NCBI GenBank assembly: GCA_000004985.1
Contig: GG738877.1
Direction: 5' to 3' (one strand)
Length of the DNA stretch: 64,000 nucleotides
From: Naegleria gruberi
Taxonomy: Eukaryota
Shown: positions 1,061-60,035 of the stretch, piece by piece
Position numbering within the stretch: position 1 is the first letter of the stretch
Layout: every line of letters starts with the position of its first letter
Position numbers and translations under genes: made by a program
The notes under the pieces: model-generated
Seen by the model: the letters and a program-made list of their open reading frames with translations, nothing else
Database searches by the model: none
What the model was told of the DNA's origin: nothing

Positions 1061-1801
1061 NNNNNNNNNNNNNNNNNNNNNNNNNNNNNNNNNNNNNNNN
1101 NNNNNNNNNNNNNNNNNNNNNNNNNNNNNNNNNNNNNNNNNNNNNNNNNNNNNNNNNNNNNNNNNNNNNNNNNNNNNNNNNNNNNNNNNNNNNNNNNNNN
1201 NNNNNNNNNNNNNNNNNNNNNNNNNNNNNNNNNNNNNNNNNNNNNNNNNNNNNNNNNNNNNNNNNNNNNNNNNNNNNNNNNNNNNNNNNNNNNNNNNNNN
1301 NNNNNNNNNNNNNNNNNNNNNNNNNNNNNNNNNNNNNNNNNNNNNNNNNNNNNNNNNNNNNNNNNNNNNNNNNNNNNNNNNNNNNNNNNNNNNNNNNNNN
1401 NNNNNNNNNNNNNNNNNNNNNNNNNNNNNNNNNNNNNNNNNNNNNNNNNNNNNNNNNNNNNNNNNNNNNNNNNNNNNNNNNNNNNNNNNNNNNNNNNNNN
1501 NNNNNNNNNNNNNNNNNNNNNNNNNNNNNNNNNNNNNNNNNNNNNNNNNNNNNNNNNNNNNNNNNNNNNNNNNNNNNNNNNNNNNNNNNNNNNNNNNNNN
1601 NNNNNNNNNNNNNNNNNNNNNNNNNNNNNNNNNNNNNNNNNNNNNNNNNNNNNNNNNNNNNNNNNNNNNNNNNNNNNNNNNNNNNNNNNNNNNNNNNNNN
1701 NNNNNNNNNNNNNNNNNNNNNNNNNNNNNNNNNNNNNNNNNNNNNNNNNNNNNNNNNNNNNNNNNNNNNNNNNNNNNNNNNNNNNNNNNNNNNNNNNNNN
1801 N
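1061..1801. other. Assembly gap (run of N, 741 nt)
   Basis: Continuous N characters. The ORFs reported across 963-2289 are artefacts of the N run and the hexamer repeat. Confidence 0.97.
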
Positions 1802-2966: not shown

Positions 2967-3016
2967 NNNNNNNNNNNNNNNNNNNNNNNNNNNNNNNNNN
3001 NNNNNNNNNNNNNNNN
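2967..3016. other. Assembly gap (50 N)
   Basis: Run of N. Confidence 0.97.
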
Positions 3017-10291: not shown

Positions 10292-11837
10292 TTATTTCCG
10301 TACATTATTAAAATCATAAAGGGAAGAGGGTGGTGTTTGCTGATTATCAGCTCTACGAGGCATTAACCTCTTTCGGGACAAACCACTTCCTCCTCTAGAA
10401 GACCCCCGAGGAGCTTCCTTAGAATTGACAGTGGACTTGTCCACACTAGAGTTTACTCCTGGTTTATACCTTGAGTAAGAGAACAGCTTTGCTCCATTGG
10501 CTGTACCAGCAGGAGGAGGATTACCAGGAGATCGTGTTGAAGCATTATTATATACTGGTTGTTGAGGTTGTTGAATAGGGTAGGGAGGATAGGATTTTAC
10601 GCCCTGATATTGTACATTCAAGGTAGGGCCTTTGTTTCCTGTTAGAGGTGATGAATCTTCAGTATTACTATTATTATTACTATTTGTTTGTTCTATTGAA
10701 AATAAGGAAAACAAGATTAAAATCAATACTTACTCTTTCCAGATTGAACTCTACTATTAATGTTATACTTGAGAGGTATTGGAGCTGAAATTCCAACTTG
10801 GAAGAAGGGATATTGAAGAGCTTGACTAGCTGTTGGCCTTTTCATTGGATCATAACTCAACAAATCAGTCATTAGCTGAATGGCTTCTTGACTTGCATTT
10901 TGAATGATGGATTCCAAAGGTGTAGGAACGAATTGAGGGAATTTCATTCCCATACTAGCAGCTAATTTAAGTCCTTCTTCCCATGTATCCCTAGTGGGTG
11001 TGCCTAGAACTGAGCAAATTTTGAAAATTTCATCAGGTTCACTTCTACCAGGGAAGAGTGGCCTAAATGTGTACAACTCTGCCATAATAACACCTACTGC
11101 CCACATGTCTATTGGTGAGTTGTAGTTTTGTGATTTCATAAGAACCTCAGGTGCTCTGTACCATCTAGTAGAAACATACTCGGTAAATGGTGGTCTGGAT
11201 CGTGTTTCCTTAGCAAGACCAAAGTCAGCAATCTTTACAGTATCTCTATGAACAAGAAGATTTTCAGGTTTCATATCACGATGAAAGTATCCAGTTTTGT
11301 GCATGTAAGCCAAGCCCTGCAGGACTTGATAAATAATATTTCTAATCTTGGATTCTGAAAACAATTTGTCTCTGTCTTTCATCACTTGATAGAGGTTGGC
11401 CTCCATATATTCAAAGACAAAATACAATTCCTGATTTTCTCTAATGACTTCTTTCAATTTAATAATATTCGGATGGTTAAGTTTTCTCAATGTCTAAAAA
11501 GATCAAATTTAAAATCTTCCAAAGAGTTGAAACAAACCTGTACTTCTTTTAATTTGATACATTCTTCCCAACTGGAGTATGTTCGCTTAATCTTCTTAAT
11601 GGCAACCTATTATTTTGTTATTATTATTGTTGTTGTTGAATATTAAATATTGTGATGATGAAAGAGAAGGGAAAATATTGAGGTGAAGCGGAGGATGTAT
11701 TCAATATTATCAAATAATTAATTGATGATGGAAATAAATATTGTACATACCACTTCTCCAGTCTCTTTATTAACTGCCCTAACAACGCTTCCGTAGGCAC
11801 CTGCTCCAATCAACTGGTTCAACTTGAATCTATTCAT
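10292..11837 (-). CDS. CMGC serine/threonine kinase of the MOK/MAK/ICK (RCK) type with a TEY activation-loop motif. Exons on the minus strand are 11751..11837, 11538..11606, 10734..11493 and 10292..10692
   Basis: Exon 1 is [29 protein letters not shown] (Gly loop) with a GTATGT donor. Exon 2 is [23 protein letters not shown]. Exon 3 carries [15 protein letters not shown] and [14 protein letters not shown]. Exon 4 is an N/P-rich tail. All junctions keep the frame and have GT..AG boundaries. Confidence 0.75.
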
Positions 11838-15343: not shown

Positions 15344-17200
15344 ATGTTGCAACAACAACTCAATCAGACGAACCATTGCACTGTAGTGTTGCATCTAGAT
15401 TTGTACTTTTCATCCAATTTACTCTCCACTAAAATACAATCCATTCCTCTCCGATATAAATATGACTTGATCATGAAACCAATTTTGAAATATTACAATT
15501 CCGATAATGATGATTATGATTATGATGATGATTTCGATATTAACGATCCAATTTGCCTCCTTCAAGGACTTTTATTAAAAATTGATGTTATTCGAGATAA
15601 AAGGTATATTTACGATCAAATAATAGAGTACAAATGGGTTGCTTGTAGTTTTAGAGAGGATTTTGGGTTATTGAACGATAGAGATTTGGCCATGAAACAT
15701 GCAAGTATTGGCATTATTGTTGAGGAATTTAACAATGACAGAGAAATTGTAATGAATGCTGTGAAAGAAACAGGAAATGGACTTTCGTATGCTTCAGAAG
15801 AATTGAGGAATGATTTTGAATTTGTGAGTGAATTGTTGGAACATGTTAATGTTTTGAATGAGGCATCAGAGGAATTGAGAGATAATAAGGAACTTGTAAT
15901 GTCACTTGTAAAACATTGTGGAGAGGCTCTTGAATATGCTTCTGATCGATTGAGAAATGATTTTGATGTTGTGTTGGCAGCTGTCAAACAAAATGGACGA
16001 GCTCTCGCATTCACAACAATAGAACTACGGAGCAATAAGGAAATTATATTGGCAGCTTTGCAATCATTTTCGCATGCATGTAAAATTGCAATATTGGACT
16101 CATTTACAAATGATAGAGATTTTATGTTTAAAGTATCTTTAGAGGATGTGTATATACTAAGGAAAGCATCTCAAGAAATTAGAAACGATAGAGAAATATT
16201 CCTCAATGCAGTTAAAATTTCTCCATACATATTCAGGGATACTTCAGATGAATTGAGGAATGATAGAGAACTAGCCATCTTGGCAATACAATCGGAGCCA
16301 TCAATGTTAGAATATGCATCAGATAATTTGAAAGATGATGAGGAAATTGTTGCATTGGCACTTTCTTCTGATGGACGTGCAATTAGACATGTATCAGACA
16401 GATTAAGAAATGATGTTGAATTTCTTCAGAAAATATTCCATAGTAGTAAGAGTGGGACAATATTGAAATATATTCCAGAAATACTCAAAAGTGATAGAGA
16501 TATCGTATTGGAATCTGTTAAACGTGATGGATACAATTTGGAACATGCCTCAAATGAACTGAAACTTGATAGAGAAATAGTATGGGAAGCAGTGAAATCA
16601 GCAACCACAGCTATACAATTTGTACCTCAAGAATTATTAAGAGAAGCCTTTATTCATGCACTTCAATTCCGTGGTGAACATTGGGACTATGATTTTTTCG
16701 AATTTGCACCTCCTGAATTCAAGAACGACAGAGAAATAGCATTAACATATGTCAAATATCATCAACGAGCACTATCCCATTTAAGCAATCAGTTTAGAGC
16801 TGATAGAGAAATAGTGTTGGAAGCTGTAAAACATTTTGGACCAAACGTACTTGAATTGGTAGATGCTCAATTCAAAAACGATATTGAAATAGTCAACTTG
16901 GCAAGAAGTAAAGGAGCTCTTACAAAATTATCAATTGAAGACCATTCAAACAGAGAAAAAGTTCTTCAAGCTTTCAAAGATGAAATAGACATTGAATATC
17001 TTACAACCTCTTTGAAGAATGACAGAGAGATTGCCATTGGATGTGTAAAGCAAAATGGATTTTGGTTACAGTATTTACCTTACAAATTTAGAAGTGATAG
17101 AGAAATAGTATTACTTTCATTTAGAGATACTAAAAGTTTAAATCACATGTCTTTGAAGTTGAGAAATGATAAGGAAATTTTAGAAAAATCGAAAAGGTGA
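15344..17200 (+). CDS. DUF4116-type tandem-repeat protein (~24-aa repeats, xELRNDREIVLxAVKQNGxALxYAS). The alternative start MKPILKYY is at 15473
   Basis: More than 15 consecutive repeats with an invariant (L/F)RNDRE(I/L) core are read directly in the ORF. Confidence 0.7.
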   Translation: MLQQQLNQTNHCTVVLHLDLYFSSNLLSTKIQSIPLRYKYDLIMKPILKYYNSDNDDYDYDDDFDINDPICLLQGLLLKIDVIRDKRYIYDQIIEYKWVACSFREDFGLLNDRDLAMKHASIGIIVEEFNNDREIVMNAVKETGNGLSYASEELRNDFEFVSELLEHVNVLNEASEELRDNKELVMSLVKHCGEALEYASDRLRNDFDVVLAAVKQNGRALAFTTIELRSNKEIILAALQSFSHACKIAILDSFTNDRDFMFKVSLEDVYILRKASQEIRNDREIFLNAVKISPYIFRDTSDELRNDRELAILAIQSEPSMLEYASDNLKDDEEIVALALSSDGRAIRHVSDRLRNDVEFLQKIFHSSKSGTILKYIPEILKSDRDIVLESVKRDGYNLEHASNELKLDREIVWEAVKSATTAIQFVPQELLREAFIHALQFRGEHWDYDFFEFAPPEFKNDREIALTYVKYHQRALSHLSNQFRADREIVLEAVKHFGPNVLELVDAQFKNDIEIVNLARSKGALTKLSIEDHSNREKVLQAFKDEIDIEYLTTSLKNDREIAIGCVKQNGFWLQYLPYKFRSDREIVLLSFRDTKSLNHMSLKLRNDKEILEKSKR

Positions 17201-24146: not shown

Positions 24147-26161
24147 ATGACTTCAAAACTCTTAGAAGAAAGATATCGTGAAGCACTCAGAGAATTGTCC
24201 GTCTCCTCCCGAGACAATATGATGTGTGTTGATTGTATGAGCAAGAAGAAGACCTCCTTCATTGTTCTCCAATTTCAAAGTTATATTTGTGAGATGTGTG
24301 CCGATGTACATCGAACATATGGTCATCGTGGAGTAAAACAAATTGGATTATCCAATGTTACTAAAGAAGAGGTTGAAGAGATGAGACAAGGTGGTAATCA
24401 AAAGGTTAAAGCCGCTTGGTATGGTGGAAATTATGATCAAATTGTTCGTCCAAATCCTGAAACATGTGCCTCCGATAAGGAATTTAAAGAAAAGGCTAAA
24501 GAACACATCAAGAAGGTTTATATTCAAAGACTTTATAAGACTGGTGGTGGTTCTACTCCTGGAAATGTTGGTAATTCCAATACAACCACTACTACTAATA
24601 CAAATCAACAATCTTCGACTCCTATCGGATCAAATAATAATAATCAACAAATGCCATACAATAACGTTCAATACAATAATGGAGGCATTGATACTAGAAC
24701 AAGAGGTGCTAGTTTGAATACTACACAATATGCTAATTTGAAGACAACCAATTCAGCTTCAATTATTCAATCATCAAATATTAGTGGTTGGTTGGTAATG
24801 GTAATGGTGGTGGTAACAAGAATAATGATTTGATTTCATTTGGTGGAAGTGATTCTCAACCTGTACAATCTGTGATGAGTAGTTTTAATCAACCACCAAA
24901 GCAACAACCACAACAACAACAACCAATGATGAATCAACAACCACCACAACAACAATATGGTCAACCACAAATGATGAATCAACCACAATATGGTAATAAC
25001 AATAATTATCCACCAAATAATAATTATAATAATAATTACAATAATAACTTTAATCAAGGAATGTCATATGGAAACAATCAAATGATGAATAATAATGGTG
25101 GTTATGGTGGTTATAACAATAATAACATGATGAATCAACAACAACCAATGATGAACAATGGTTATAACAATAATTATGGATACAACAATAATGGCATGAT
25201 GAATCAACAACAACCAATGATGAACAACAATAATGGTATGATGAATCAAAATTATGGTTATGGTCAACAACCACAACAATATAACAACATGAACAATAAC
25301 TATAATAACAATATGGGTTATGGTCAACCACAAGGAATGCAATACGGAAACAACAATCAACAACCAATGATGAATAACAGTAGACCACAAATTTCCTCTC
25401 CACCACAAACTCCACCTGTTAATAATAATAATAACAACAACTATGGAATGACACCAACCAATGTAAATATTAGTCCAAGACAACCATCCCAACCATCCAT
25501 GCCTATCAATCCTATGGGATACAATAATCAATATGGTACTCCAATGACTCCAAGTCAACCACCTCAATCTACTATTACTCCTGTCAATCCATACGTTGGC
25601 ACTTCACCAAGAAGTAATAACATTCCAACTCCACCTCCAACCAATCTTAATGTTGTTTCTCCATCAAGAAGTGCAAGCATGCCTCCAAAGTCAACTCCTC
25701 CATCATTTGGTTCAACAAGTACCATTAATCAACCTCCTACTTCTGTTCCACCAAGACAACCATCCCAACCAGTTAGAACTCCATCAATGGCTTCATCAAC
25801 AATATCAGTTCCAAGAAAAGAGGGTAATAATGATAGTTTGTCAAACCAATTCAACAACATGTCTCTTTCATCATCAACCAAGCCAGTCACCACTTCAACA
25901 GTTCCAAAGAGTACTCCACCATCTACTGCTACCACTTCCACTTCCACAACAGGTCAAAAGCCACCTGTAGGAGTTACTAGTGGTGCTGGTCTTCTTGTTG
26001 GTTCAACTAAAAAGATTGATTCTTCAGAATTTGAAAAGGCAACCACAACTGGTGTACATATGGACGATCTTCGTGGTAATGCCAGTAAGGACAATACTAA
26101 ATTCAAGGAAATCAATCCAAACAGAGTCATTCCATTGAAGCAAACTACTGAATGGCAATAA
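24147..26161 (+). CDS. ArfGAP-domain protein of the AGFG/HRB type with a very long N/Q/M/P-rich (prion-like, FG-nucleoporin-like) tail. It is encoded by two overlapping ORFs (24147..24833 and 24788..26161) offset by -1
   Basis: The ArfGAP zinc finger is CVDCMSKKKTSFIVLQFQSYICEMCADVHRTYGHRGVKQIGLSNVTKEEVEEMRQGGNQKVKAAW. The second ORF continues the N/Q-rich composition. No GT..AG intron fits the junction. Confidence 0.6.
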
Positions 26162-28889: not shown

Positions 28890-31275
28890 ATGTTAGAACA
28901 TTCCACCATCACGGCCTTGTCAGTGCTTTCAGGTATTTTGAGTGAGGAGGGTTCTGCTGATGATGGAACGCTTAAAAAGCAGAGGGTTGATGTTTTGTTT
29001 TTTGGTCACTTGGATGGAATTATTACTGCTATTTTTCATAATAATACAGTGATGAATGAGGCTTATTTGTATGAGGAGAGGAGTTATGATGTTTGGTGTG
29101 GAAGGATGCATTCGGAGGAGATTTGTGGAATTGTTGGAGTGCCTGGAGAGAATACGTTTGTTTCGTGGAGTAAGCATGAGATTAAAAGTGGACTATTCAA
29201 TGATTCAAGGGAAGGTGAAGTTTGTTTAAAGTTGGACATGTCGCACCATGTAAAGGGATTTTCAATAGCAACAGTTCTGGTTGTTGAGAGGAATATTCAT
29301 ATATTTACAAAGAATGGAAGAGTGTTGGAGATTGGTTTGGACACAGGGGATTTAGTGAAACAGTACGAATTGGTAGTGAATACTGCCTTATGTGTGGAGC
29401 AAGTATTGATCATGGGAGGAAGTATTGATGAGTATTACATTCTTTGGGAAGGAAATAGAATTTCCAAGCACAATAACCATGGAGGAGGGAAATTCTCTCA
29501 GGTAAAATTTGAGGGAGGAGGCAAAATTTCAGAAATAGATATTAGTTCGGATCAACAGACAATGATTGCTACTGTCTGTAAGGGAGATGAACGTAAAGTT
29601 TGTGTGTTTGATATTTCCAAATTGATTTCATCAAACATTATTGACAATATCAAAATGTATTCCACTGTCAATACTAAAACTGATACAGGAGTTGAAGTGA
29701 ATGGTACGTTGTTTCTTAAAACTTGCCTTTATCATTTCAACATTCTCAGACATTGTAGGAATACATTGTTGTGAAAATCAAAATTACTGTTTTGCTTACT
29801 CGAGTGGCATTTCATGGTTCTCTACTCATCAAAACAGTTACTCCAAACTCTTATTATTAGTAATGAAGAGAGTTTTCAAAATTAATGATCAAAAATTATT
29901 AAGGATGAAGTGGAGTACGGACGGAACTTGTTGCTTTATTGTTGGAGATCATGGCTCTATTATTGCCTTCTACACAGATCCGCATCAGCCAGAATTCACT
30001 CTTGCTTCTGCTGATTGCATTCAGTTCCCAATACACAAAAAGTTCCAAGAACAAAAATTGCAATTATCGGCCTTTTGTGATTCTGAAGAATTTTCAGATA
30101 TTGATATCATTACACAGAACTATGCAGATAACAACTCAGAACTAAATGTGAAAGACAGTCTCCTAACTACATCTAGTTTTGATATCTTTCAATTAGGCAA
30201 GAATGACAAATCAGTTGCCAGGTATATCTTTGGCCACGAAGATGGAACATTTTCTTTATTCTCAAAGGAAACTCCTAGTGGCCCTTGTAAACCATTGTGT
30301 ACATTCCAACCAATACACAGCTCTAAGATACAAGGATTTTTGAAAGTTTCAGAAAATAGATACCTTTCATGGACAAAAAAGGAGATTTTCATCTCTGACC
30401 AATTGTTCAAAGTGGTAAAGGATTTGTCCATTCACATTAAGGGTGAGACAGTTGTTGCCTTAGAATTTTATGGAACGAATGTTTACATTGTAACCCACAT
30501 GTCAAAATTGAAAATTGTAGAATTGAGATCAGATTTCAAATTTGTCAAGTGTAAGGAGATTTCTCTGGTCACAGAGGGGCTATCAGGATTAACTGTGAAA
30601 ACATGCCAAATTTTAGTGAACTCAACCAAAATAGAATTGTTGATTTTGTGGAATAGTGAAAAGGATTACTCTTTCAGAACTTTCCAAAACACACCAAACA
30701 GAATTCAAAACCTCGATGCTCCAATTAATGTGAGTCTTTCAAACAAAATTACCGAGCTTGGAAAATTGGACAAGTTCCTCTATGTAAAATATTCAGGAGA
30801 AATTGATTATACATTTTTATCAATTTCTTCCATTCCTGATTCGTTGGTGAAAGGGCCAGAATTTCCAAAGGTACCAGACGCTTCCTATCAGTATACACTC
30901 TATCATCATGTACAATCTGGAAAGAACTATGGATTGACCAGTGATAAGTTCTACTCTCTATTTGATGCTATTCGTCTTGAGATTACCATTCACGATGTGA
31001 GGCGAACCTTTAAAGGATTTAATGAAAGATTTGTATCCCTTAGGTGGTGCCAGAATGTTGAAAGTCCAGCAGTGTACATTCTATGTAGTGGTGGAACAGT
31101 TCTTGTTTTTGATCTATCAAAAGATGAACTGCATGCTCCAAACTTACAGCACTGCAAACCTCTCAGAATCAGATGTGATGAAATCACTAAGAAAATACCT
31201 CTTAACAAATCAATACGAGTTCCAAAAACTAATTCTGTACCAAGAATCAACTTGTCCTCACCAATTAAAAAGTAA
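28890..31275 (+). CDS. Large uncharacterised protein (~790 aa, probably beta-propeller-rich). Exons 28890..29703 and 29750..31275
   Basis: Two long ORFs are joined in frame by a 46-nt intron (gtacgtt..tctcag). I recognised no diagnostic motif. Confidence 0.5.
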
Positions 31276-36350: not shown

Positions 36351-36465
36351 CAGTGTTCTAATTAAATTAATCATTGAATGAAAATGCAATTTATATCCAT
36401 GTTGCTGAAACTGGCTTTTTTTCGGTATAGTTTTTATTTAAATATCAGAAATTAAGGATTTCAAC

Positions 36466-36585
36466 GGCTACGGCCATATCACGATGAATGCACCTCATCC
36501 CGTCCGATTTGAGAAGTTAAGCATCGTAGAGCCACATCAGTACTGAGGTTGGAGACAACTTGGGAACCTGTGGTGCTGTAGTCTT
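36466..36585 (+). rRNA. 5S ribosomal RNA gene (copy 1)
   Basis: GGCTACGGCCATATCACG...CCCGTCCGATTTGAGAAGTTAAGC...GTACTGAGGTTGGAGAC...CTTGGGAA...GTGCTGTAGTC followed by TTTT. The 5'/3' ends pair to form helix I. Confidence 0.9.
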
Positions 36586-36699
36586 TTATTTCTTTTTATA
36601 TTTTTGCAGATTTTACACTTGTTTGATATCAACAATATTGGAAGCTTGTTTTTATTGGTTTTTCAATATTGATTCATTAAGTACTGCCATTTTACAAAA

Positions 36700-37232
36700 T
36701 TAGAAAGCATTAATCAACTTTTTAGCTTCAGAATCAGCAGATGGACTTTGTCTTTCATTAGCAACCTTCATAATAAGAGTCAAATTGCAATCCAAAGTGA
36801 CAACCAAATCAGTACCATTAACCTTGTAAGAATATCCAAGGAAACCAGAAGATTCCTTACTATCAGCATTGTGGACAACTCTGAAAATCAATTTTTCCAA
36901 TCCCATGAAAGCGTCCTTACAATCAGGATCCTTGATGAAAACCTTGGCAATTTCACTCATCTCAATCTTGGACTTTCAGTTAAGAATTTGATGCAATTAT
37001 TCAACAAGGTATCTTCAGCAAATCTATCACCATACTTGTATTTGGTTTCAGTTGGCAATGCAGCAAGAGAAGCCCAATCCAACAAGATGATCATCTTTGA
37101 ATTGACTTGTTGAAGATTCTTAGTAGCAGGAACAATACGATTGTTGAATAATTCACGAACCACCTTCTTGAATGCCAAACCACTTCCACACATGTTTTCA
37201 TTGAATAATTCTTCGTGAGTTTGTTGAGTCAT
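36700..37232 (-). CDS. Hypothetical small protein encoded by two abutting ORFs (36957..37232 and 36700..36960) offset by -1. Function unknown
   Basis: Both ORFs have coding-like composition. The junction is AGATGAGTG (stop overlapping ATG). The short A3 run upstream could hide a 1-nt deletion. Confidence 0.35.
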
Positions 37233-38695
37233 TTTGATATAAAGCTTGTTGAGGAGTTTTCAGATACAATTCAATATTGAATATTGTTTTTTTGTTTTGT
37301 CTTTATCATAAAGAATGGTCAATTTGAATTTATAGTAATTTTTACTGAGTAAGATTACAATATTTACAATGGAGTTTAATAGAGTTCAATGGTTTTCTGA
37401 GAATTGAATTGGTTTAACATTTGTGGAACAACCTTATTGAGAAGTCAGTAAGAGGAATGGTAACACCTCAGTATCATCTAACTATCGAATAGAACTCAAC
37501 AACAACAATTGGATATGGAAAAGGGAGGATATTAGTTTCCAATGTTCTCATTTAACCCTCTTGATCGTGTTGCTTAAAATAATTAGTTGGAAACTCATTG
37601 TAACTTTTGGAACTACAAAAACGAAAAAAACAACATGGACATGTTAACATGCTTTCATGCAACATGCAAGAATGCAAGTTGTGCTATCAAAGCTAATAGG
37701 AACCCAAAATATTCATTTCAAATAGGATTTTATTTCATTATAGAACAAATTACAACTATTGCTTATATGAGGATGAACAACTTGCACATTATTACAAAAC
37801 CTGAATACAGTGTTACGGAGGAATGTTATCGAAAGGGAACGATTCTGTTGAATATGACAATTTATTTGATTCGGAGGTATTCCATTAGATCAACAGAATT
37901 AAATATATTTACAGTGAATGTCTAGGTTGTACAAAATTTGGAGTTGATTGATTTATCTAAAAGATTACCATTATTTGATATTGATACATCTAATATTATA
38001 AATGGAACTAGACATTGATTATCATCTTGCAAATTTAAATGGTAAAGAAATTTCAGTGAAAAGATCTTCGAAAAATTCAATTGAAAAGAGCTAAACAACA
38101 ATCAGCCACCACTAAGAAGATTACCAAATCGAAAAAGATGTAAATTAACTTGTAACTAATTACGTAGTAAATTGTAAATGTTTTGAAATAGATGAAGTTT
38201 CAATTTAGAATTGATCAGAATATGAGAAACCAAAATTTGCATCAAACAATTCAACATGGCAAAAGTTCAATAAATACTAGGTTGATCAACCATATCTATT
38301 TCTTCAAACAAAACCTGAACCAACAAGATTCTGTCTTCGTTGCCTTCACTGTTCATACAGTCAAAGACTGTAGCGGGACAGTCGCCATATTCCTGGCAGG
38401 CTTCCTGTCGTATCTAATTAATTGAATTTCTATTGACATTGCTTCCAAGTAGCGATCTAGTAGAATTCGACTCTACATTACACAACTTAAAGGCAGTTAT
38501 AAATATGGTTACTAAAGTTCAAAGTGTTAGATCATTAAGTAATCATCTTGGATGGTTGGAAATAATGCCCCAAGTGTTAAAGTTATTGATAACAATAAGG
38601 ATGAACAAAATGGTTCTTTCATCCACCCTCGCTTCTATGTTCGAGAAAGCTCACTCATCTTAATAGATTAAATATCGTAAATTAAGGTGATGAAT

Positions 38696-38815
38696 GGCTA
38701 CGGCCATATCACGATGAATGCACCTCATCCCGTCCGATTTGAGAAGTTAAGCATCGTCGAGCCACATCAGTACTGAGGTTGGAGACAACTTGGGAACCTG
38801 TGGTGCTGTAGTCTT
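38696..38815 (+). rRNA. 5S ribosomal RNA gene (copy 2)
   Basis: Identical to copy 1 except for one position (A/C). It shares the upstream AAATTAAGG motif and the downstream T-run. Confidence 0.9.
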
Positions 38816-38963
38816 TTTATTTAGCTTTTTATAAGGATAATTCATTTGCTACCTGTTCAATTTTTGATCTTTTCAAACTTTTATTCAAGTACCACAACAC
38901 CATGCATCCAAGGTAATACAGAATCGCTCCACATATACAACCTCTTATCCAATTCTCTCGAAA

Positions 38964-39160
38964 ACATCTTTCTCGGCCAATTGGCTTTGATCGAGTGTAG
39001 TATCTGTTCTTTTCAGTTTAATAGCTGAAAGCAGCCCACGGGTTGCAATTACTATTAACTCAATTTTTTGTAGGGTCCAGAGTTGTGCTTGATTGCACAC
39101 TTTGGTTGGTTTCAATCAGACATTGCACTGTCCGTCAGAATTGGAGCTATCCCACTCTAT
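38964..39160 (+). ncRNA. U2 spliceosomal snRNA
   Basis: ATCTTTCTCGGCCAATTGGCTTTGATCGAGTGTAGTATCTGTTCTTTTCAGTTTAATAGCTGAAAG matches the conserved U2 5' end. It contains the GUGUAGUA branch-point-binding sequence, stem IIa and the Sm site AATTTTTTG (~39063), followed by two 3' stem-loops. The 3' end is approximate. Confidence 0.75.
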
Positions 39161-39862: not shown

Positions 39863-42544
39863 ATGCTGCTAACAAACTCTACATCAACAACAATGAATTC
39901 ATCATCAATAACAACTTCATCAATTAGAGCCAATGATAAGGATGGCTTACTTTCTCGTGTTCTGGTCTTTCAAACTTCCACAAACATGAGTGGAAAGAAC
40001 AAGTATTGGCAATTTTGCATCATTTCCCAACACGATCACGACGATGATAATTCTTCTTCATCTTCTGATGAATCAACATCAAGTAATACAACAACAGCAT
40101 CAACAGACACTAACAATAATTTATTCTCCTCCTCCACTACCACAACAGCAACTATATACTATCTTCAATCTAGGCACGGTATTACTACCAAAGACTCACA
40201 CTCTGGTAAAATTCATACAAGTGGAGGAGCTTGTTATCAGAAAGCCTTTTCAAGTGAATTACAAGCACAGAAGGAACTCTTGTTAAGAATTCACTCTAAA
40301 CTCACTGATGGTTATGTGTGGATTTCAAATAGAAAGAAGAGAAAGTTTCCAATAGAAGAATTAACTCAACAAGTGAATGATAAACTTCAAGAACAATACG
40401 ACAAGTTTAAGAATATGTTTTCCAATAAGAAGAAGAATTCAAATAGTTTACCTAGGGTGGCTTCTCCACAAAGATTTACTAACATGGTCATTAGAAGAAT
40501 GGGATTGAGTCCTAGTAGAAACATTCCTTCTCTCAAGACAAGAATTGATAAGAAAAAGAGAAAGCAAATGGATAAATCCTTCAATAGAGAACAATTACTC
40601 AAGTTGGCTGAATTGTCTTCTTCATCATCATCGGAAGAGGAAGAAGAAGATAAAAGACCAAGAACTGTTGCCAATAAGAGAAAAAGAAACAAACAACAAA
40701 AGAGAAAGTACAAATCTGCTTCATCTTCATCAGAAGAAAATCTTTTGTCTGAAGATGAAATTACTCCAAGAATTAGAACATCCAAACAAGTTAAAAAGAA
40801 GAGGAAACCAACAGTATCTAGTCCTGCTTCTAATAATTCTACAAGTGTTGCTCCAACTAGATTATCATTTGGTAATATGAATGAAAATGATTCAGATTCA
40901 GATTCTGAACATGGTGATAATGATGATGGTTTATCTGGATTTGAAAGAATTTCTACACCTGAAAGGTTTAGATCTTTTGATAGAGTTCACTCACCTGGAA
41001 TGGTTTCTGAAATGGACTCTGATTATGAGAATAGATCATTTAGTGCTTCTCCAATGATTAATAATCATCGTAATAACGATCAAGATGATGATAGTTTCTT
41101 GTTGGGTGGAGGTGGAGCTGATTTTATGGATTCATCACCATTTGATTATTCAAGTATTCCAACAGTTGAGTCATCTAGTACAATTTCCAAATTGGAAGAA
41201 AAGATTAAAAAGTTGAATGAGAATCTTTCAAAGGAAAGTGAAAGAGCTAACATGCTTTCTCTTGAGAAGAATTATTTAGAAAATCAATTGAAGGAACAAC
41301 AAGAATTAGCTTGTCAACAAAAACTCTCACATGACAAGTTGGTTGAAGAACTCTCACAACAATTACAACAAATTTCTAATGATCAATTAGAAGATACCAA
41401 GAAATTCCTTGCCAGAGAAGAGGAATTTAAAATAAGAGAGGAAGTATTGTATAATAGAGAACAACAAGTCTCATCTAGGGAATATTTATTGAACGAGATG
41501 GAAATCAAATTACAACAAGAACAAGAAAAGTTGACAAGACAATTAGAAGAATTGTCTTTCCAAAAAACTAATATCGAAACTATGGAAAAGGAATTGAATG
41601 AAAGAAGTCAACAAGTATTGCAATCTGAAAAGGATCTCCAAAATAGAATTGAGCAACACAACTTGACAAAAGACGAGGAAACCAACAAGTTGAATCAAAT
41701 GGAGCAAGATTTTTACGAAACCATGCAAAGATTAGAACAGGAAGTTCAAAATAAGTGGTCAGAATTTGAAACTTTGAGAAATAATTTTGAACTCGATATG
41801 GAAAGAAGAAATCAAGAAATTTCTCAACTTGATCTCGAATTGGAACAAAAGAGGGTAAGAGTAGAAGCTGATTTAGAAAGTGTCAAACAATCATTTGAAC
41901 AAGAAAAGAAACACCACCTCTATAATATTGAAACAAGACAATTACAATTGAATTCTCTCGATGAATCTATCAATGAAAAACTTGCTGATTTGGAACTGAG
42001 ACAAGCTTCTTTCACAACAGAAAAGGAGTCCTTCCAAGCTTTGATCAAACAACGTGAACAAGAATTGAATGAAAAGCAAGGTCAACAAGAACTTCAAGCT
42101 CAACATTTGAAATTTTTAAAGTACCAATTAGATACAAGAGAAAAATCATTTGAAGAAGCTTCTACACAGTTTAACGCAATCAGGTTAGAGACTGAAAATT
42201 CTCTCAAATTGAAATCAGACACTCTTCACAATCATTTACAAGAACTCTCAGAAAGAGAAAAGTCATTTGAAGTTTCTCTTGCCAAATTCGAAAAGGAAAA
42301 GTCACAATTCTATGAAATTATCAAGAAGAAAACAATCATGGAAAATCAATGTAAAATTTTGGCTCAACAATTGAATGAAAAACAAGTGGAATTCCAACAT
42401 GCTCTCTCTGAATGGATGGCATCAACCTCCTCTCAAGATGAATACTCAATCATGGCAACTGATGAGGAAACTTCTATAATTTCCTCTGCTCCAATTCCTT
42501 CCTATATGGCCAATGATGATACAGATAATAGCCAATATTTTTAA
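39863..42544 (+). CDS. WGR-like domain plus long coiled-coil protein, with a K/R/S-rich middle region
   Basis: The N-terminal KYWQFCIISQHD...IYYLQSRHGITTKDSHSGKIHTSGGACYQKAFSSELQAQKELLLRIHSKLTDGYVW fits the WGR pattern. The C-terminal ~450 aa are heptad-rich (EEKIKKLNENLSKESERANMLSLEKNYLENQLKEQQEL...). Confidence 0.55.
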   Translation: MLLTNSTSTTMNSSSITTSSIRANDKDGLLSRVLVFQTSTNMSGKNKYWQFCIISQHDHDDDNSSSSSDESTSSNTTTASTDTNNNLFSSSTTTTATIYYLQSRHGITTKDSHSGKIHTSGGACYQKAFSSELQAQKELLLRIHSKLTDGYVWISNRKKRKFPIEELTQQVNDKLQEQYDKFKNMFSNKKKNSNSLPRVASPQRFTNMVIRRMGLSPSRNIPSLKTRIDKKKRKQMDKSFNREQLLKLAELSSSSSSEEEEEDKRPRTVANKRKRNKQQKRKYKSASSSSEENLLSEDEITPRIRTSKQVKKKRKPTVSSPASNNSTSVAPTRLSFGNMNENDSDSDSEHGDNDDGLSGFERISTPERFRSFDRVHSPGMVSEMDSDYENRSFSASPMINNHRNNDQDDDSFLLGGGGADFMDSSPFDYSSIPTVESSSTISKLEEKIKKLNENLSKESERANMLSLEKNYLENQLKEQQELACQQKLSHDKLVEELSQQLQQISNDQLEDTKKFLAREEEFKIREEVLYNREQQVSSREYLLNEMEIKLQQEQEKLTRQLEELSFQKTNIETMEKELNERSQQVLQSEKDLQNRIEQHNLTKDEETNKLNQMEQDFYETMQRLEQEVQNKWSEFETLRNNFELDMERRNQEISQLDLELEQKRVRVEADLESVKQSFEQEKKHHLYNIETRQLQLNSLDESINEKLADLELRQASFTTEKESFQALIKQREQELNEKQGQQELQAQHLKFLKYQLDTREKSFEEASTQFNAIRLETENSLKLKSDTLHNHLQELSEREKSFEVSLAKFEKEKSQFYEIIKKKTIMENQCKILAQQLNEKQVEFQHALSEWMASTSSQDEYSIMATDEETSIISSAPIPSYMANDDTDNSQYF

Positions 42545-42590
42545 ATAAAATCATAAATTCACAAAGATCTGTATCCTTTTCTATTAAGGA

Positions 42591-43868
42591 ATGAACTCTT
42601 CTTGGTCTGGAAAGAGTTTTAAAAAAAAAGCAAAAATGAGGAACAATCTTAATCCATCCGTAACGACAATCTTAATGTTGCTCATGGTCATGATGATAAA
42701 GTTAGCCGAGGCAACAACCCCTATTTTTGAACCATCCATTGACACAACACCTCGAAATCTTGCTCCGAATACACCAATATTGTACAATTTTGAGGGTTGG
42801 AATTTTAATATTCAATTTTCAACACTCCCTGATTCGATAGTGAGTGGCAGTCTCAAGATGAGTGCTGCCGATGTGCCAATCACACATACCATCCCATCTT
42901 TTAATAAGAAAATGGAAGAGGTGTTCTTCTTTACTTTGGATTTAACTCAGACAACCCTTAACTATCCACCAAACACTCCCGAAGAGGAAAAGGCAAGAAT
43001 GAGAGCAACCAGAACTGCAATGGAGGTTGTTTTTACTACTTCTGTTCCTTCTCCATTCATGTATGATCCCTACTCTTATAAAATGTTGAGATATGATGAG
43101 GCAACAAATGCATTTTCAGAACCTGTTGATGCTTTAAAGATTGATTTGGATTATTCCTTCTCTATTAATGAAGCTTTTGGAAAGAAGATTATCTTTGGAT
43201 TGTTTGTTTTTAAATCACCACTAGATGTTCAGTTTGGAAAGAAGATTGCCATATACTATCCAAGCTATTTGCAGTTTTCGTATGATGATTACTTGATGGG
43301 ATACCTTTTTCCAAAGGCAAATTATTTCACACCATCAAATCCTTCAATGCTTACAGTCAATCAAGTGAAGCAAAAGTATGAAAAATTGGGAACATCTAGA
43401 GTTTTACTTTCTCGTATCTCAGTCACAATTACAAAGAATCCATTACAATTTGAGGAAGCAACTTTTCAAGCTTTGTCTTTCAAGAATGAAAATGTAAAGA
43501 ATGTTGTTGGAGACAGTTACAGAATCGATCTCAATTCATTGACATGTATCTTCCTATCAGGTAATCAAGAATTAATGGCAAGAAAAGTATCCTTTGAAAA
43601 CAATGTTTTGACTTGTGATGTGAATCCATTATTAGCAGGAGATCATGAAGTTTTAATTGTTGCCAATAATGCAAATCCACCAGAACCGATGAACAGAGGT
43701 GTAGGAAGTGTGGTTCTTGGTTTGTTTATTTCTGTGGTTGCAATTGTTTCACTCGTTGTTTTGGGTATTGGTGTTTTCATGTTCATTAAAAGAAGTAAAA
43801 TGTCAAGAGGATTACTGTCAAGCTCACAAGCTGCTCCAACCTCAGCTTATTATTCAACTGATATTTAA
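42591..43868 (+). CDS. Type I membrane glycoprotein-like protein with an N-terminal signal peptide and a C-terminal TM. Function unknown
   Basis: The N-terminal hydrophobic segment TILMLLMVMMIKLAEA follows a Met at ~42636. The C-terminal TM is VVLGLFISVVAIVSLVVLGIGVFMFI, followed by a short cytoplasmic tail. Confidence 0.5.
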   Translation: MNSSWSGKSFKKKAKMRNNLNPSVTTILMLLMVMMIKLAEATTPIFEPSIDTTPRNLAPNTPILYNFEGWNFNIQFSTLPDSIVSGSLKMSAADVPITHTIPSFNKKMEEVFFFTLDLTQTTLNYPPNTPEEEKARMRATRTAMEVVFTTSVPSPFMYDPYSYKMLRYDEATNAFSEPVDALKIDLDYSFSINEAFGKKIIFGLFVFKSPLDVQFGKKIAIYYPSYLQFSYDDYLMGYLFPKANYFTPSNPSMLTVNQVKQKYEKLGTSRVLLSRISVTITKNPLQFEEATFQALSFKNENVKNVVGDSYRIDLNSLTCIFLSGNQELMARKVSFENNVLTCDVNPLLAGDHEVLIVANNANPPEPMNRGVGSVVLGLFISVVAIVSLVVLGIGVFMFIKRSKMSRGLLSSSQAAPTSAYYSTDI

Positions 43869-52170: not shown

Positions 52171-54249
52171 TTGCATACTATTCGAAATATGATATTAATT
52201 TATAATAATACTATAATGATGATCATAATAATAATAATAATAATAGGATTGAAGGATCTGGGTGCCCGAATAGAGAAAGATGCCAAATCACCTGGATTTC
52301 TATCACCTCGAGGAATGGCAAGTCCAGCCACTGATGTTTCGCCCAAAACGCCAAGACGAGGTACCATTCTACAACAAAATGAAAATGGAGAACCTATTCG
52401 AATGTTTGAAGTGGATGATTATGAATTACAATTTGTGGAAATGATGGAAGTTCCAGAGAGTAGAGATTTATTTCTCACCCATTTACAATCTTTTTCAATT
52501 CCTGAAGTTATTTCATTCCTAAAGGATATGTGGAAATATAAAGAAAAGAGGAAGAATATTTACAATGGAACAACTATGAAAATTGAACATTCAACAAGTG
52601 TAGAAAATTTACAAAGTAGTTTTGCATCAACGTTTTCATTACAGAGAAAAACAGTTACTGAATTACACAAATTAGCTCAAGATATGATTGGATTGTATAT
52701 TGAAAATGATGCTCGTCTTCAACTTAATATTTCATCAGAGGTGTCATCCTTGTTATTGAAAAGATGGGGAGCTATCAATCATATTAAGAATACAGTGGAA
52801 GTTAAACAGTCATCATTTGCCAAGAGTGCAAAATCGTTTTTTAATAGTGAAAGCAATGAAAGTGACATGTTTTCAATTGATCTGGATACCATTAAACTTC
52901 CTAGTACAACAACTACTACAATGGCAAGTTCGGTTGGAACTTCATACACATCAAGTAATAACAATCCACTTACAAACACCATCGTTGCCGGTTCACTTGA
53001 TATGGATACGATTTTGGACGAAACAGTGACAGATAAAATGGAGAGATCCTCCTCTGTACACAGTATGAGCACGCCCAATTTAGATGAAGATTCTGGGTTT
53101 TTTGTCAAGTGTTTGGCACATGCACTCCCGAATCAAATTCAAGAAACTGTATTGAAATTATGTCAATTGTTTGACAGTGTAGAATTTTATGTATATAATG
53201 ATCTAGCTTTGGAGCACTTTCCAAAGTTTAAAAAGAGTAAGGAAGTGAAAAATTTTCTTCTTCAGAAAGGAGAAGAATTCACAAAGAAAATCTCAATCAA
53301 CATGAAACTAGGTTATGAACTAGATATCAGATATAAGGCAAAGGATTTCGTAAATCCATTGATTACCGATAAGGATATTTACTTTACAATCATGCTCTGC
53401 ACAGATGCCTATAAGAGTGAATGGCAATTATTAGGTGAAAAGGTAATTGAAGAAAAATATCTGAAAACTTCCTATCAGGCATACATTTCCAATCAAAAGT
53501 TTTTACTTGGTGAGGAAAATTCAAATTCCAATATGAAATTGGCCAAGATTGACATTCAATTACCATTTCCTGTCGATGAAGCATACAAAGTGGCACTGGA
53601 TAGAAAGTAAGTTTTCCCTGAAATTATTTCATTAATCCCCAATAGAGCTAAATTGAAATGTGACCCAATCACTCTTGGTGATTTTGATACATACAAGGTT
53701 GATGATTTGGATGTGAAACGACCACTATCTATTGCCTTCTCTAGTGAAAGTTATAACATTGGAAAATTGTACAAGACAAGAGAGGCAACCTTTGTTCAGA
53801 CTCTTGTTTTTGATAGAAAAACCAATTGCTATATCAATATTGCCAAGACGGCTGAATTTGAGGAAAAGAAAAAGTCCAAAGATAAGATACCAGTTGACTT
53901 ACTCTATGCCTACATGTTTAAGCATAGTGGACCAAACAAGTGCACTCTGACCTATATTTATTTTGGAGATTTAAAACTCTCACTGGATACAGATATGTTT
54001 TTCAAACGATTTATCAAGGATAGAGCCAAAGCATTGAGCAAGGGATTCTCCAAGATACTAGCCGAAAGAACCAGTTACGGAAATCACTCATGGAATGAGA
54101 GTGTTGATGATGTTTTCTGTCTGCAGGAATGCTTAGAAAAGAATATGAAAGCCTATCCACAAAGATCATGGTTCGACGAGTATAATGCCTACCTGGAAAG
54201 AAGCAAGACAATGGAAAGAGCCAATTCCAAACAAAATTTGAATAATTAA
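52171..54249 (+). CDS. RGS-domain protein (one clear RGS domain plus a second RGS-like region). Exons 52171..53606 and 53646..54249. The true start is uncertain (possible micro-exon ATG at ~52076 or an internal Met at ~52315)
   Basis: RGS signature SRDLFLTHLQSFSIPEVISFLKDMWKYKEK ... LAQDMIGLYIENDARLQLNISSEV. The intron gtaagttttcc..ccccaatag joins the ORFs in frame. The region upstream of 52250 is AT-rich and intron-like. Confidence 0.55.
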
Positions 54250-58804: not shown

Positions 58805-59071
58805 ATGATCATTCCTCCACCTCCTTTCCAAGTGCCACCTCCACCAATTAACATTTCACCCAGCACTACTTCTTCCTCAACCACCACAACACCTCTTCCG
58901 CCACCACCTCCTCCTCAACTTCCTTCTTCATCCATTGCTGATCAACGAAAGAAAAAGAAGAGATTTAAATTAGTTCCACCTAGTGATAATCAGGTGCCAC
59001 TTTCTAATCCTTCCATTCCTAAACCTCCATTGCATAGTTGTGCCAATAATGTTTTACTAGTCCAACTTTAG
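58805..59071 (+). CDS. Proline-rich ORF (88 aa). It is possibly the 5' exon of the downstream kelch-like gene or a separate small gene
   Basis: PPPP tracts. ORF only. Confidence 0.25.
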   Translation: MIIPPPPFQVPPPPINISPSTTSSSTTTTPLPPPPPPQLPSSSIADQRKKKKRFKLVPPSDNQVPLSNPSIPKPPLHSCANNVLLVQL

Positions 59072-60035
59072 TTTCGTTTGGTGGATCAAGTTTCGAATTG
59101 GGATATCAAAAGACTTTGTTAATGCTTGATTTGGATCCTGCCACAAAGTATTCACAAGATGGAGGATTAGACACTAGTTTTGAATTTGATTGGAAACCAA
59201 TTCAAACAGAGAATAATCAAGTGTTTGATGAAAGTAATTTTACTTGCATGTTTGGGAATATAATCTATTCGAAACGTAATCAAGCAATTTATGTATTTGG
59301 GAGAGGATGGTCTAAACCATGGATCGCTGAATTGAGCTTGAAAACACTCAAATGGAAAAAGAAAGATGTCTCAATTAATCATGTCTTTCCATCTGTGAAA
59401 TATGCAGTTTCCCAAGACAGTGAAAACTTTTTATTATGTATGGAAGGTGATTATTACAATAATCCACCAAAATTATCCATGTTCAAGTTTAGTGAGCTGG
59501 AAAGGATTTTCTCAAAGCAGGAGAAGGAGGAATTACTATTAGGAGATAGATCCTGTTTCACTTTGAATGGCAATTTTCAAGCAAGAATGACAGCTCCATT
59601 GTCAAATGAAAACAAGACAGTTATTTTTGGTTGATTTTGGATTTTAACTCGGAGAAAATTATATCTAACTGCCCTTATATTGGTGAACCAGTATATCCAT
59701 GTGCTACTGAGTTGATGAATGATTCAAACTCAAAGTGTGTTCTCATTTCGAGTGGAGATAAGTATTTCAACTTTAATGTGGATAAGAGAACACCAAAATC
59801 ATTGAGATATTCCAAATCAGCTATTGAAATGAATTACCACAAGTTGTTTGTTCCATATTTGGCATATTTCAAAACAAGAAGAGGTGAAAATCAAGTAGTT
59901 CACATTATTAATAATGATATTCTCTTAATTTTGAAATTGGATAACATTGTTCCGACCTATGCATTCAATAACAAGTTGACAGAAGCTCATTTTAGTGATG
60001 TCATTGTCGAATGTAATGCCACCACCAATCACTAA
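59050..60035 (+). pseudogene. Kelch/beta-propeller-like gene split into two ORFs (59098..59634 and 59631..60035) by a -1 frame offset at a T5 run. It is either a pseudogene or a 1-nt assembly error
   Basis: Both halves have kelch-like blades (IYVFGRGW..., VVHIINNDILLIL). Frames switch at gttatttttggttga, and adding one T restores ...TVIFWLILDFNSEK.... Confidence 0.45.

What the first reader, a model, noticed from the sequence alone, without database searches (positions are those of the whole stretch)
24147..26161. Three genes in this window are each split into two ORFs by the same kind of -1 frame offset
Three genes are each two abutting or overlapping ORFs, and in every case the downstream frame is -1 relative to the upstream one. 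They are the AGFG-type ArfGAP (24147..24833 / 24788..26161), the small protein at 36700-37232, and the kelch-like gene (59098..59634 / 59631..60035). No plausible GT..AG intron explains any junction. The kelch case sits at a T5 homopolymer. A consistent one-base deficit is the signature of homopolymer undercalling in the assembly, but true pseudogenes or programmed -1 frameshifting cannot be excluded from sequence alone.
Basis: seen in the sequence. Interest (0 to 1): 0.5.

Follow-up and report, generated by a model that had tools for sequence, protein, structure and literature searches.

The report
Three indel-broken genes in Naegleria
Three genes in this stretch of the public Naegleria gruberi genome are each broken by small deletions or insertions that shift the reading frame; these look like ordinary gene damage or draft-sequence flaws, not a special decoding mechanism.

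Summary
The window is the public Sanger assembly of Naegleria gruberi NEG-M.

- **Each ORF set is one gene.** Intact single-ORF relatives span every break: a 627-aa Willaertia magna ArfGAP, a 178-aa N. gruberi paralogue of the small protein, and a 417-aa metagenomic homologue of the third gene.
- **Not introns.** Eight introns mapped exactly in the window are 39-91 nt with GTAAGT-like donors. The four junctions have none, and coding signal changes frame with no gap.
- **Not programmed frameshifting.** There is no slippery heptamer or stable downstream RNA fold, and relatives are unsplit.
- **Not the proposed one-base homopolymer undercall.** The small-protein break is a 4-nt deletion (TAAT). 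The third gene's breaks coincide with about 79-nt and about 28-nt deficits. The ArfGAP break lies in GGTT/TGGTAA repeats. Only one break touches a T5 run.
- **The shared -1 direction fits chance (1/8).**

The public annotation hides two of the loci with pseudo-introns of 35, 35 and 50 nt. Real mutation versus consensus error cannot be settled without reads. Interest is low.

The parts
24147..24833 (+). ArfGAP gene, upstream ORF (228 aa). It holds the complete ArfGAP zinc-finger domain. The last ~15 codons are out-of-frame read-through.
   Evidence: Pfam PF01412 E=5.8e-17, residues 14-131. PDB hits to SMAP1 and AGFG1/RIP ArfGAP domains. Aligns to Willaertia magna P0012 residues 1-182, E=5e-53.
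24785..26161 (+). ArfGAP gene, downstream ORF in the -1 frame. It has an N/Q/P-rich linker and a conserved C-terminal motif (...INPNRVIPLKQTTEWQ).
   Evidence: Coding potential is positive from ~24800. The C-terminal 160 residues align to the C-terminus of the same Willaertia protein, E=2e-19. P0013 and P0014 show the same architecture.
24785..24833 (+). Zone in which the ArfGAP frame break must lie. It contains (GGTT)2GGT followed by imperfect (TGGTAA)4 and has no homopolymer longer than 3.
   Evidence: Three-frame translation. TRF finds period 6 at 24793-24816. Homopolymer list. Willaertia 'IINSGNIQGVNNNY' versus window 'IIQSSNISG[WL]VGNGNGG' is compatible with +2, -1 or -4 nt.
36957..37232 (-). 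Small-protein gene, upstream ORF (91 aa).
   Evidence: Identical to the N-terminal part of N. gruberi P0002 and P0003.
36700..36975 (-). Small-protein gene, downstream open frame (-1). The ATG at 36960 overlaps the upstream TGA.
   Evidence: Identical to the C-terminal part of P0002 and P0003.
36960..36961 (-). Site of a 4-nt deletion (TAAT, codons Ser-Asn). The window reads AGATTGAG|ATGAG where relatives read AGATTGAGTAATATGGG or AGATTGAGTAAGTTGGC.
   Evidence: DNA alignment A1 with metagenome contigs L001 and L002. Paralogues read ...PRLSNMSEIAK. Re-inserting TAAT gives an uninterrupted 178-aa protein.
58805..59071 (+). It is P-rich with a KKKKRF motif.
   Evidence: Aligns to the P0010 N-terminus.
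59050..59634 (+). Third gene, middle open frame (-1 relative to the first ORF).
   Evidence: 'SPTLVSFGGSSFELGYQKTLLMLDLDPATKYS' is nearly identical in P0010.
59610..60035 (+). Third gene, last open frame (-1 relative to the middle frame).
59059..59064 (+). A single AGTCCA sits where the homologue has two similar motifs 79 nt apart (ctaGTTCCA ... aagAGTCCT). The window lacks the 26 codons between them plus 1 nt.
   Evidence: Protein alignment A2. Codon-level comparison with L003.
59624..59633 (+). Break b: ...att ttt ggt | tg att ttg gat ttt. It includes the T5 run. The window has ~28 nt fewer than the homologue between the conserved Gly and I(L/M)DF.
   Evidence: The size is uncertain because this part of the protein also differs by in-frame indels between the lineages.
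59037..59071 (+). Annotated 35-nt pseudo-intron (GTTGTG..TTTAG) used by public model P0009 to hop break a.
   Evidence: Splicing it out, together with 59620-59654, reproduces P0009 exactly. It is shorter than the eight mapped introns and has a non-consensus donor. It contains residues conserved with P0010, SCANNVLLV ~ SLANDMLLV.
59620..59654 (+). Annotated 35-nt pseudo-intron (GTTATT..CGGAG) used by P0009 to hop break b.
   Evidence: It contains residues conserved with P0010, TVIFG ~ VALYG and ILDF ~ IMDF.
36956..37005 (-). Annotated 50-nt pseudo-intron (GTTGAA..GATGAG) used by public model P0003 to hop the 4-nt deletion.
   Evidence: Splicing it out reproduces P0003 exactly. It removes 'LLNNCIKFLTESPRL', which is conserved in all family members.

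Best explanation
The window is part of the public Naegleria gruberi NEG-M reference, on a scaffold of 394,700 nt. Three unrelated genes in it carry four independent frame-breaking indels relative to intact relatives.

1. **ArfGAP gene (24147-26161).** A small indel lies inside a GGTT/TGGTAA short-tandem-repeat tract. Its size is unresolved: -1, -4 or +2 nt.
2. **Small-protein gene.** This is one copy of a multi-copy 178-aa family and has lost 4 nt (TAAT).
3. **Lineage-specific gene of unknown function (58805-60035).** It has two lesions. One looks like a ~79-nt deletion between two AGTCCA-like motifs. The other is a ~28-nt deficit next to a T5 run.

Every net length change is congruent to -1 mod 3, so each downstream frame is -1. 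The lesions differ in size and sequence context, and the shared direction is coincidence.

The most likely origin is ordinary mutation: replication slippage or microhomology-mediated deletion. That would leave null alleles or young pseudogenes in a heterozygous laboratory strain. Young is inferred because no secondary stop codons have accumulated. The expected products are truncated. For the ArfGAP this means a 228-aa protein that keeps the GAP domain but lacks the linker and the conserved C-terminal motif.

**Shown:** the frames; the absence of introns; one gene per ORF set; the 4-nt size of lesion 2; identity with the public assembly.

**Inferred:** the sizes of lesions 1 and 3; that the lesions exist in the organism's DNA rather than only in the consensus sequence.
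For: **Source of the window.**
- Hits are named 'predicted protein [Naegleria gruberi]'.
- Splicing the window reproduces P0003 and P0009 exactly.
- The NEG-M assembly is Sanger-based (PMC9928731 Table 1).
- The window carries N gaps of 741 and 50 nt, typical of a scaffolded draft.

**One gene per ORF set.**
- Willaertia magna KAL9647010.1 (627 aa) covers query residues 25-672.
- P0001 (178 aa) is intact across the small-protein junction.
- P0010 (417 aa) is one uninterrupted ORF on contig L003.

**Lesion sizes and context.**
- The 4-nt gap in alignment A1, and the restoration test.
- Gaps of 26 and ~10 residues sit exactly at the two breaks of the third gene. The first has AGTCCA microhomology.
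- Tandem repeats lie at the ArfGAP break.

**Other copies of the small-protein family also look damaged.**
- P0006 ends in a frame-shifted reading of the same DNA.
- P0007 and P0008 are truncated.
- P0002 lacks 9 internal residues.

**Not introns.**
- The eight introns mapped exactly in the window are 39-91 nt and 67-80% A+T. Their donors are GTAAGT (five), GTATGT, GTACGT and GTTTGT.
- The best GT..AG candidates at the junctions have donors GTTGGT, GTTGTG, GTTATT or GTTGAA and contain conserved coding residues.
- Coding potential is continuous across each junction.

**Precedent.** RNA-seq reads show 8-bp-deletion and 1-T-insertion variants at a frameshifted Naegleria clarki locus (bioRxiv 10.64898/2026.08.18.745565).
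Against: - No reads, transcripts or second assembly of N. gruberi could be examined. Consensus errors cannot be ruled out, for example a mosaic of two haplotypes that differ by indels.
- All fragments remain open, with good codon usage and no further stops. That fits very recent lesions but equally fits artefacts.
- Apart from the 4 nt, the small-protein copy is identical in protein sequence to paralogue P0002. A mis-assembled or mis-called repeat copy would look the same.
- The ~79-nt and ~28-nt sizes rest on one homologue at 48% identity. An in-frame lineage difference plus a 1- or 4-nt lesion at the same place is less parsimonious but possible. This applies most to break b, next to the T5 run.
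- Four lesions in about 45 kb of coding sequence is many for genuine mutations, unless the strain carries many null alleles.
Confidence: 0.6

Rival explanations
1. Draft-assembly consensus artefacts. The organism's genes are intact. The reference carries spurious indels from low-quality Sanger reads, from collapsing near-identical paralogues, or from mosaic consensus across heterozygous indels.
For: - The sequence is a scaffolded draft with gaps.
- All ORF fragments are otherwise pristine.
- The small-protein copy equals paralogue P0002 except for 4 nt.
- The ArfGAP break lies in a repeat tract where alleles may differ in length.
- A Naegleria clarki locus shows a genome-versus-reads frameshift discrepancy.
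Against: - Deficits of 4, ~28 and ~79 nt are not typical base-calling errors.
- AGTCCA microhomology at break a looks mutational.
- Several other family copies on other scaffolds are also damaged. Real decay of this family is therefore plausible.
Confidence: 0.3
2. One reading: single-base undercalls in homopolymer runs.
For: - T5 at 59624-59628 lies in break b.
- T4 and T3 runs lie in the zone of break a.
- All four shifts are in the direction expected for a missing base.
Against: - The assembly is Sanger-based.
- The small-protein lesion is 4 nt and not in a homopolymer.
- The ArfGAP zone has no run longer than 3.
- The breaks in the third gene coincide with multi-codon gaps.
- Four of four in one direction has a chance probability of 1/8.
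Confidence: 0.05
3. Very short spliceosomal introns of 35-50 nt, as in the public gene models, restore the frame in the mRNA.
For: - Public models P0009 and P0003 use exactly such GT..AG segments.
- Real introns in this genome can be as short as 39 nt.
Against: - The donors GTTGTG, GTTATT and GTTGAA match none of the eight mapped donors. The lengths of 35 nt are below the observed minimum.
- The segments have positive coding potential.
- They encode residues conserved in homologues and paralogues.
- No comparable candidate exists for the ArfGAP gene.
Confidence: 0.03
4. Programmed -1 ribosomal frameshifting, or RNA-level correction, joins the ORFs.
For: Only the shared -1 direction and the overlapping ORFs, including the ATGA overlap in the small-protein gene.
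Against: - No X_XXY_YYZ heptamer lies in the zero frame in any zone.
- Downstream 121-nt folds are no more stable than shuffles: z = +1.0, +1.8, +0.5, -0.6.
- Relatives and paralogues encode one continuous ORF, so the arrangement is not conserved.
Confidence: 0.01

Closest known systems
Frameshift-disrupted genes: unprocessed pseudogenes or null alleles arising by slippage or microhomology-mediated deletion
   Same: - Intact relatives exist.
- The lesions are indels whose length is not a multiple of 3.
- The lesions sit in repeats or between short direct repeats.
- One case belongs to a multi-copy family with several decayed members.
   Different: - No secondary stops or obvious relaxed codon usage are seen yet.
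- The real-versus-artefact status is untested.
Annotation artefacts in which gene predictors insert implausibly short introns to bridge frameshifts
   Same: Public N. gruberi models P0009 and P0003 are reproduced exactly by removing 35-, 35- and 50-nt GT..AG segments that contain conserved coding sequence.
   Different: The ArfGAP locus has no protein model in the collections searched.
Naegleria clarki Ndc80 locus (bioRxiv 10.64898/2026.08.18.745565)
   Same: - A Naegleria genome sequence carries a frameshift.
- Mapped reads there show indel variants (8-bp deletion, 1-T insertion) that restore a contiguous ORF.
   Different: - It is a different species and a long-read assembly.
- No reads were available here for the equivalent test.
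Programmed -1 ribosomal frameshift sites (viral gag-pol type)
   Same: Overlapping ORFs with the downstream frame at -1.
   Different: - No slippery heptamer.
- No stimulatory structure.
- Not conserved in relatives.

Membership tests
Programmed -1 ribosomal frameshift site | Slippery heptamer X_XXY_YYZ in the zero frame within the ORF overlap | tested here: not met
   None in any of the four zones.
Programmed -1 ribosomal frameshift site | Stable stem-loop or pseudoknot a few nucleotides downstream | tested here: not met
   Minimum free energy versus 200 shuffles gives z = +1.0, +1.8, +0.5 and -0.6. Pseudoknots were not modelled.
Programmed -1 ribosomal frameshift site | The two-ORF arrangement is conserved in relatives | tested here: not met
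   Willaertia P0012, N. gruberi P0001, and metagenomic P0004, P0005 and P0010 are all single ORFs.
Spliceosomal intron of this genome | GTAAGT-like donor, YAG or AAG acceptor, length of at least 39 nt | tested here: not met
   The eight mapped introns are listed. The candidates at the junctions are: donors GTTGGT, GTTGTG, GTTATT and GTTGAA, with lengths 35-59 nt.
Spliceosomal intron of this genome | The removed segment is non-coding | tested here: not met
   Coding potential is continuous. The segments encode residues conserved in homologues.
Homopolymer undercall (sequencing artefact) | The deficit is exactly one base inside a homopolymer run | tested here: not met
   The small-protein lesion is 4 nt, TAAT. 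The ArfGAP zone has no run longer than 3. Break b at T5 remains inconclusive.
Homopolymer undercall (sequencing artefact) | A sequencing platform prone to this error | tested here: not met
   N. gruberi NEG-M is listed as Sanger (PMC9928731 Table 1). Window identity to that assembly is shown.
Pseudogene or null allele | Frame-disrupting lesion relative to intact homologues | tested here: met
Pseudogene or null allele | The lesion is present in the organism's DNA and transcripts, with loss of the full-length product | not testable with these tools
   No N. gruberi reads or transcripts were reachable. Exact-product look-ups found nothing.
ArfGAP domain proteins (Pfam PF01412) | Domain match above the gathering threshold, with a CX2C..CX2C zinc finger followed by HR | tested here: met
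   62.3 bits against a cut-off of 28.7. The sequence reads CVDC..CEMCADVHR. PDB ArfGAP domains of SMAP1 and AGFG1/RIP match at 5e-08 to 2e-06. The AGFG-versus-SMAP subtype is not resolved.
Kelch-repeat proteins | Kelch motif matches or a beta-propeller fold | tested here: not met
   No Pfam family at E<=0.1 for any of the three ORFs. No PDB relative. The structure model was unusable, pLDDT 29.7.

The most novel reading that the evidence does not exclude
The frame breaks are genuine, and the full-length proteins are still made. This would need an undescribed nuclear recoding or RNA-level repair process in Naegleria that compensates -1 frame lesions at non-canonical sites.
Probability: 0.02. Interest if true: 0.75.

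Novelty: new member of a known kind. Interest (0 to 1): 0.12.

Why it matters
The main value is practical.
- Two public N. gruberi protein models (386 aa and 160 aa) are artefacts built with pseudo-introns.
- One ArfGAP gene appears to have no protein model in the collections searched.
- The three loci should be flagged as frameshifted, either as pseudogenes or null alleles, or as assembly errors.

If read data show the lesions are real, they give a small sample of recent null alleles in a long-cultured axenic laboratory strain. Nothing here points to new biology.

Tried and rejected
- **ArfGAP word-index protein search.** It returned no hits. The exhaustive HMMER search was needed.
- **Exact-product look-ups.** Window ORFs and the N. 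gruberi proteins were not on record. No second N. gruberi assembly or read-based contig could be recovered.
- **Metagenome scan for close ArfGAP relatives.** It gave only a 30%-identical fragment, L004.
- **PDB searches.** Nothing was found for the small protein or the third gene.
- **AlphaFold2 on the intact homologue P0010 with a 5-row alignment.** The model had pLDDT 29.7 and was unusable, so no fold search was run.
- **GT..AG enumeration at all junctions.** It produced many mechanical candidates, none resembling real introns.
- **First all-pairs intron scan.** It was too noisy and was replaced by a coding-potential census.
- **Kinase pair 10723..11490 / 10292..10726.** I considered it a possible fifth -1 split and rejected it, because it has a clean 41-nt GTAAGT..AATAG intron.
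- **Pairs 28890..29774 / 29701..31275 and 52171..53610 / 53653..54249.** I rejected them as lesions because they have clean 46-nt and 39-nt introns.
- **Literature.** The original genome paper is not in the held library, so its statements on coverage and heterozygosity could not be cited directly.

Full report
**1. What the window is**

The sequence is eukaryotic nuclear DNA.
- It is 34% G+C.
- It carries a U2 snRNA, two 5S rRNA genes and three tRNA genes.
- It has N gaps of 741 and 50 nt.
- Its introns are short and begin with GTAAGT-like donors.

Protein searches identify it as Naegleria gruberi. Removing three specific GT..AG segments from the window reproduces two public N. gruberi proteins exactly. 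These are P0009 (386 aa) and P0003 (160 aa), both recorded on a scaffold of 394,700 nt. The window is therefore the public NEG-M reference, which is listed as a Sanger assembly of 40.9 Mb (PMC9928731 Table 1).

**2. The observation**

A codon-usage log-odds profile was trained on Pfam-supported ORFs of the window. It shows positive coding signal in the upstream frame up to each junction. The signal then continues in the -1 frame with no non-coding gap.

It lies in the third gene, between 58805..59071 and the frame that opens at 59050.

A census covered every pair of neighbouring coding ORFs in the window.
- All other junctions have canonical introns.
- The eight introns mapped exactly are 39-91 nt and 67-80% A+T. 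Their donors are GTAAGT (five), GTATGT, GTACGT and GTTTGT.
- One of them is the kinase pair 10723..11490 / 10292..10726. On ORF coordinates alone it looks like another -1 split, but it has a clean 41-nt intron.

Four breaks in three genes therefore stand out. All four shifting in the same direction has a chance probability of 1/8, which is not significant.

**3. Each ORF set is one gene**

*ArfGAP gene.*
- ORF1 holds a complete ArfGAP domain (Pfam E=5.8e-17). Its PDB matches are the SMAP1 and AGFG1/RIP domains.
- An exhaustive HMMER search found Willaertia magna KAL9647010.1 (627 aa). This single protein matches ORF1 at its N-terminus (E=5e-53) and the end of ORF2 at its C-terminus (E=2e-19), including the shared ...KQTTEWQ motif.
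- Two metagenomic proteins of 644 and 722 aa have the same layout.

*Small protein.*
- It belongs to a multi-copy N. gruberi family.
- P0001 (178 aa) is intact and reads ...FLTECPRLSNMSEIAKVF... across the junction.

*Third gene.*
- P0010 (417 aa) is one uninterrupted ORF on an ENA metagenome contig, L003. It aligns across both breaks.
- Pfam gives no Kelch or any other family for this gene, so the 'kelch-like' label is unsupported.

**4. What the lesions are**

*Small protein: a 4-nt deletion.*
- The DNA alignment with two independent related contigs shows AGATTGAG----ATGAG in the window. The relatives read AGATTGAGTAATATGGG and AGATTGAGTAAGTTGGC.
- Re-inserting TAAT gives a 178-aa ORF. It is identical to paralogue P0002, apart from nine residues that P0002 lacks, and 92% identical to P0001.
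- The deletion is not in a homopolymer.
- Other family members also look damaged. P0006 ends in a frame-shifted reading of the same DNA, and P0007 and P0008 are truncated.

*Third gene, break a: about 79 nt missing.*
- The upstream frame still encodes SCANNVLLV, matching SLANDMLLV in the homologue.
- The downstream frame still encodes TSPTLVSFGG, matching TKSPTLVSFGG.
- The two readings overlap on a single AGTCCA in the window. The homologue has ctaGTTCCA and aagAGTCCT 79 nt apart, with 26 codons in between.
- This is the pattern of a deletion between short direct repeats.

*Third gene, break b: about 28 nt missing.*
- The window has about 28 nt fewer than the homologue between a conserved Gly and I(L/M)DF.
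- This region also differs by in-frame indels between the lineages. A single-base event in the adjacent T5 run therefore cannot be excluded.

*ArfGAP: size unresolved.*
- The break must lie in 24785-24833. This is a tract of (GGTT)2GGT and imperfect (TGGTAA)4 with no run longer than 3.
- Comparison with Willaertia (IQGVNNNY versus ISG[WL]VGNGNGG) is compatible with a +2, -1 or -4 nt change and does not decide between them.

**5. Alternatives tested**

*Introns.*
- Enumerating every frame-restoring GT..AG pair gives only poor donors (GTTGGT, GTTGTG, GTTATT, GTTGAA).
- The segments have ordinary coding composition.
- The public models use 35-, 35- and 50-nt segments of this kind. These remove residues that are conserved in homologues, so they are annotation workarounds.

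*Programmed -1 frameshifting.*
- No zero-frame X_XXY_YYZ heptamer lies in any zone.
- Downstream RNA is no more stable than shuffled controls, with z from -0.6 to +1.8.
- Relatives are unsplit.

*Homopolymer undercalling.*
- The sequencing platform is wrong for this error.
- One lesion is demonstrably 4 nt.
- Two others coincide with multi-codon gaps.
- One zone has no homopolymer.

**6. Real mutation or consensus error?**

This cannot be settled here. No N. gruberi reads, transcripts or second assembly were reachable.

For real lesions:
- The multi-base sizes.
- The microhomology at break a.
- The decay of other copies of the small-protein family.

For artefacts:
- All fragments are otherwise pristine.
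- The sequence is a draft with gaps.
- The organism is heterozygous (Fritz-Laylin et al. 2010, as cited in PMC9928731), so mosaic consensus at indel polymorphisms is possible.

A comparable discrepancy between genome and reads has been reported for a Naegleria clarki locus (bioRxiv 10.64898/2026.08.18.745565).

My estimates are about 0.6 for genuine lesions, 0.3 for consensus artefacts in general, and 0.05 for single-base homopolymer undercalls specifically. The remainder goes to mini-introns and recoding.

**7. Verdict**

The favoured interpretation, one-base homopolymer undercalls, is not supported. The lesions are heterogeneous ordinary indels that share a frame direction by coincidence. 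This is a routine annotation and assembly quality issue and carries low interest.

Noticed in passing
window 59037-59071, 59620-59654 (+) and 37005-36956 (-): Public N. gruberi protein models P0009 and P0003 are built with pseudo-introns of 35, 35 and 50 nt. These have non-consensus donors and remove conserved coding sequence. The models hide frame breaks rather than describe real splicing.
   Followed up: yes
window 24147-26161: No N. gruberi protein model for this ArfGAP gene was found, either by the word-index search or by the exhaustive search of cluster representatives. The gene may be unannotated in the public proteome.
   Followed up: partly
N. gruberi paralogues P0002, P0006, P0007, P0008 (other scaffolds): Several other copies of the 178-aa family look damaged or oddly modelled. 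P0002 lacks 9 internal residues (27 nt). P0006 ends in a frame-shifted reading. P0007 and P0008 are truncated. Only P0001 looks intact. The function of the family is unknown.
   Followed up: partly
window 36438-36587 and 38668-38817; 38964-39154: There are two 5S rRNA genes (a 150-nt direct repeat, 95% identical, 2230 nt apart) with a U2 snRNA gene next to the second. The broken small-protein gene lies about 115 nt from the first 5S gene, on the opposite strand.
   Followed up: no
window 1061-1801 and 2967-3016: Runs of N (741 and 50 nt) mark assembly gaps. The extreme composition and skew reported for the first 2 kb is largely an effect of these gaps and of the ORF-like sequence around them.
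   Followed up: no
window 10693-10733 (-): The kinase gene has a 41-nt GTAAGT..AATAG intron that makes two abutting ORFs look like a -1 frameshift. It is a useful control, because ORF geometry alone does not separate introns from frame breaks in this genome.
   Followed up: yes
window 15344-17200 (+) and 61680-63452 (+): Two large proteins are made of DUF4116 repeats (12 and 6 matched stretches).
   Followed up: no
window 42544-42591 (+): Only 46 nt separate the stop of an 893-aa ORF from the ATG of the next 425-aa ORF on the same strand. No intron signal lies between them. This is either very tight gene spacing or one gene with an unrecognised junction.
   Followed up: no
L001 (ERZ12289978), L002 and L003 (ERZ929261): Environmental metagenome assemblies contain short contigs from Naegleria relatives, with proteins 48-88% identical to N. 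gruberi. These were the only outside DNA available for comparison.
   Followed up: partly
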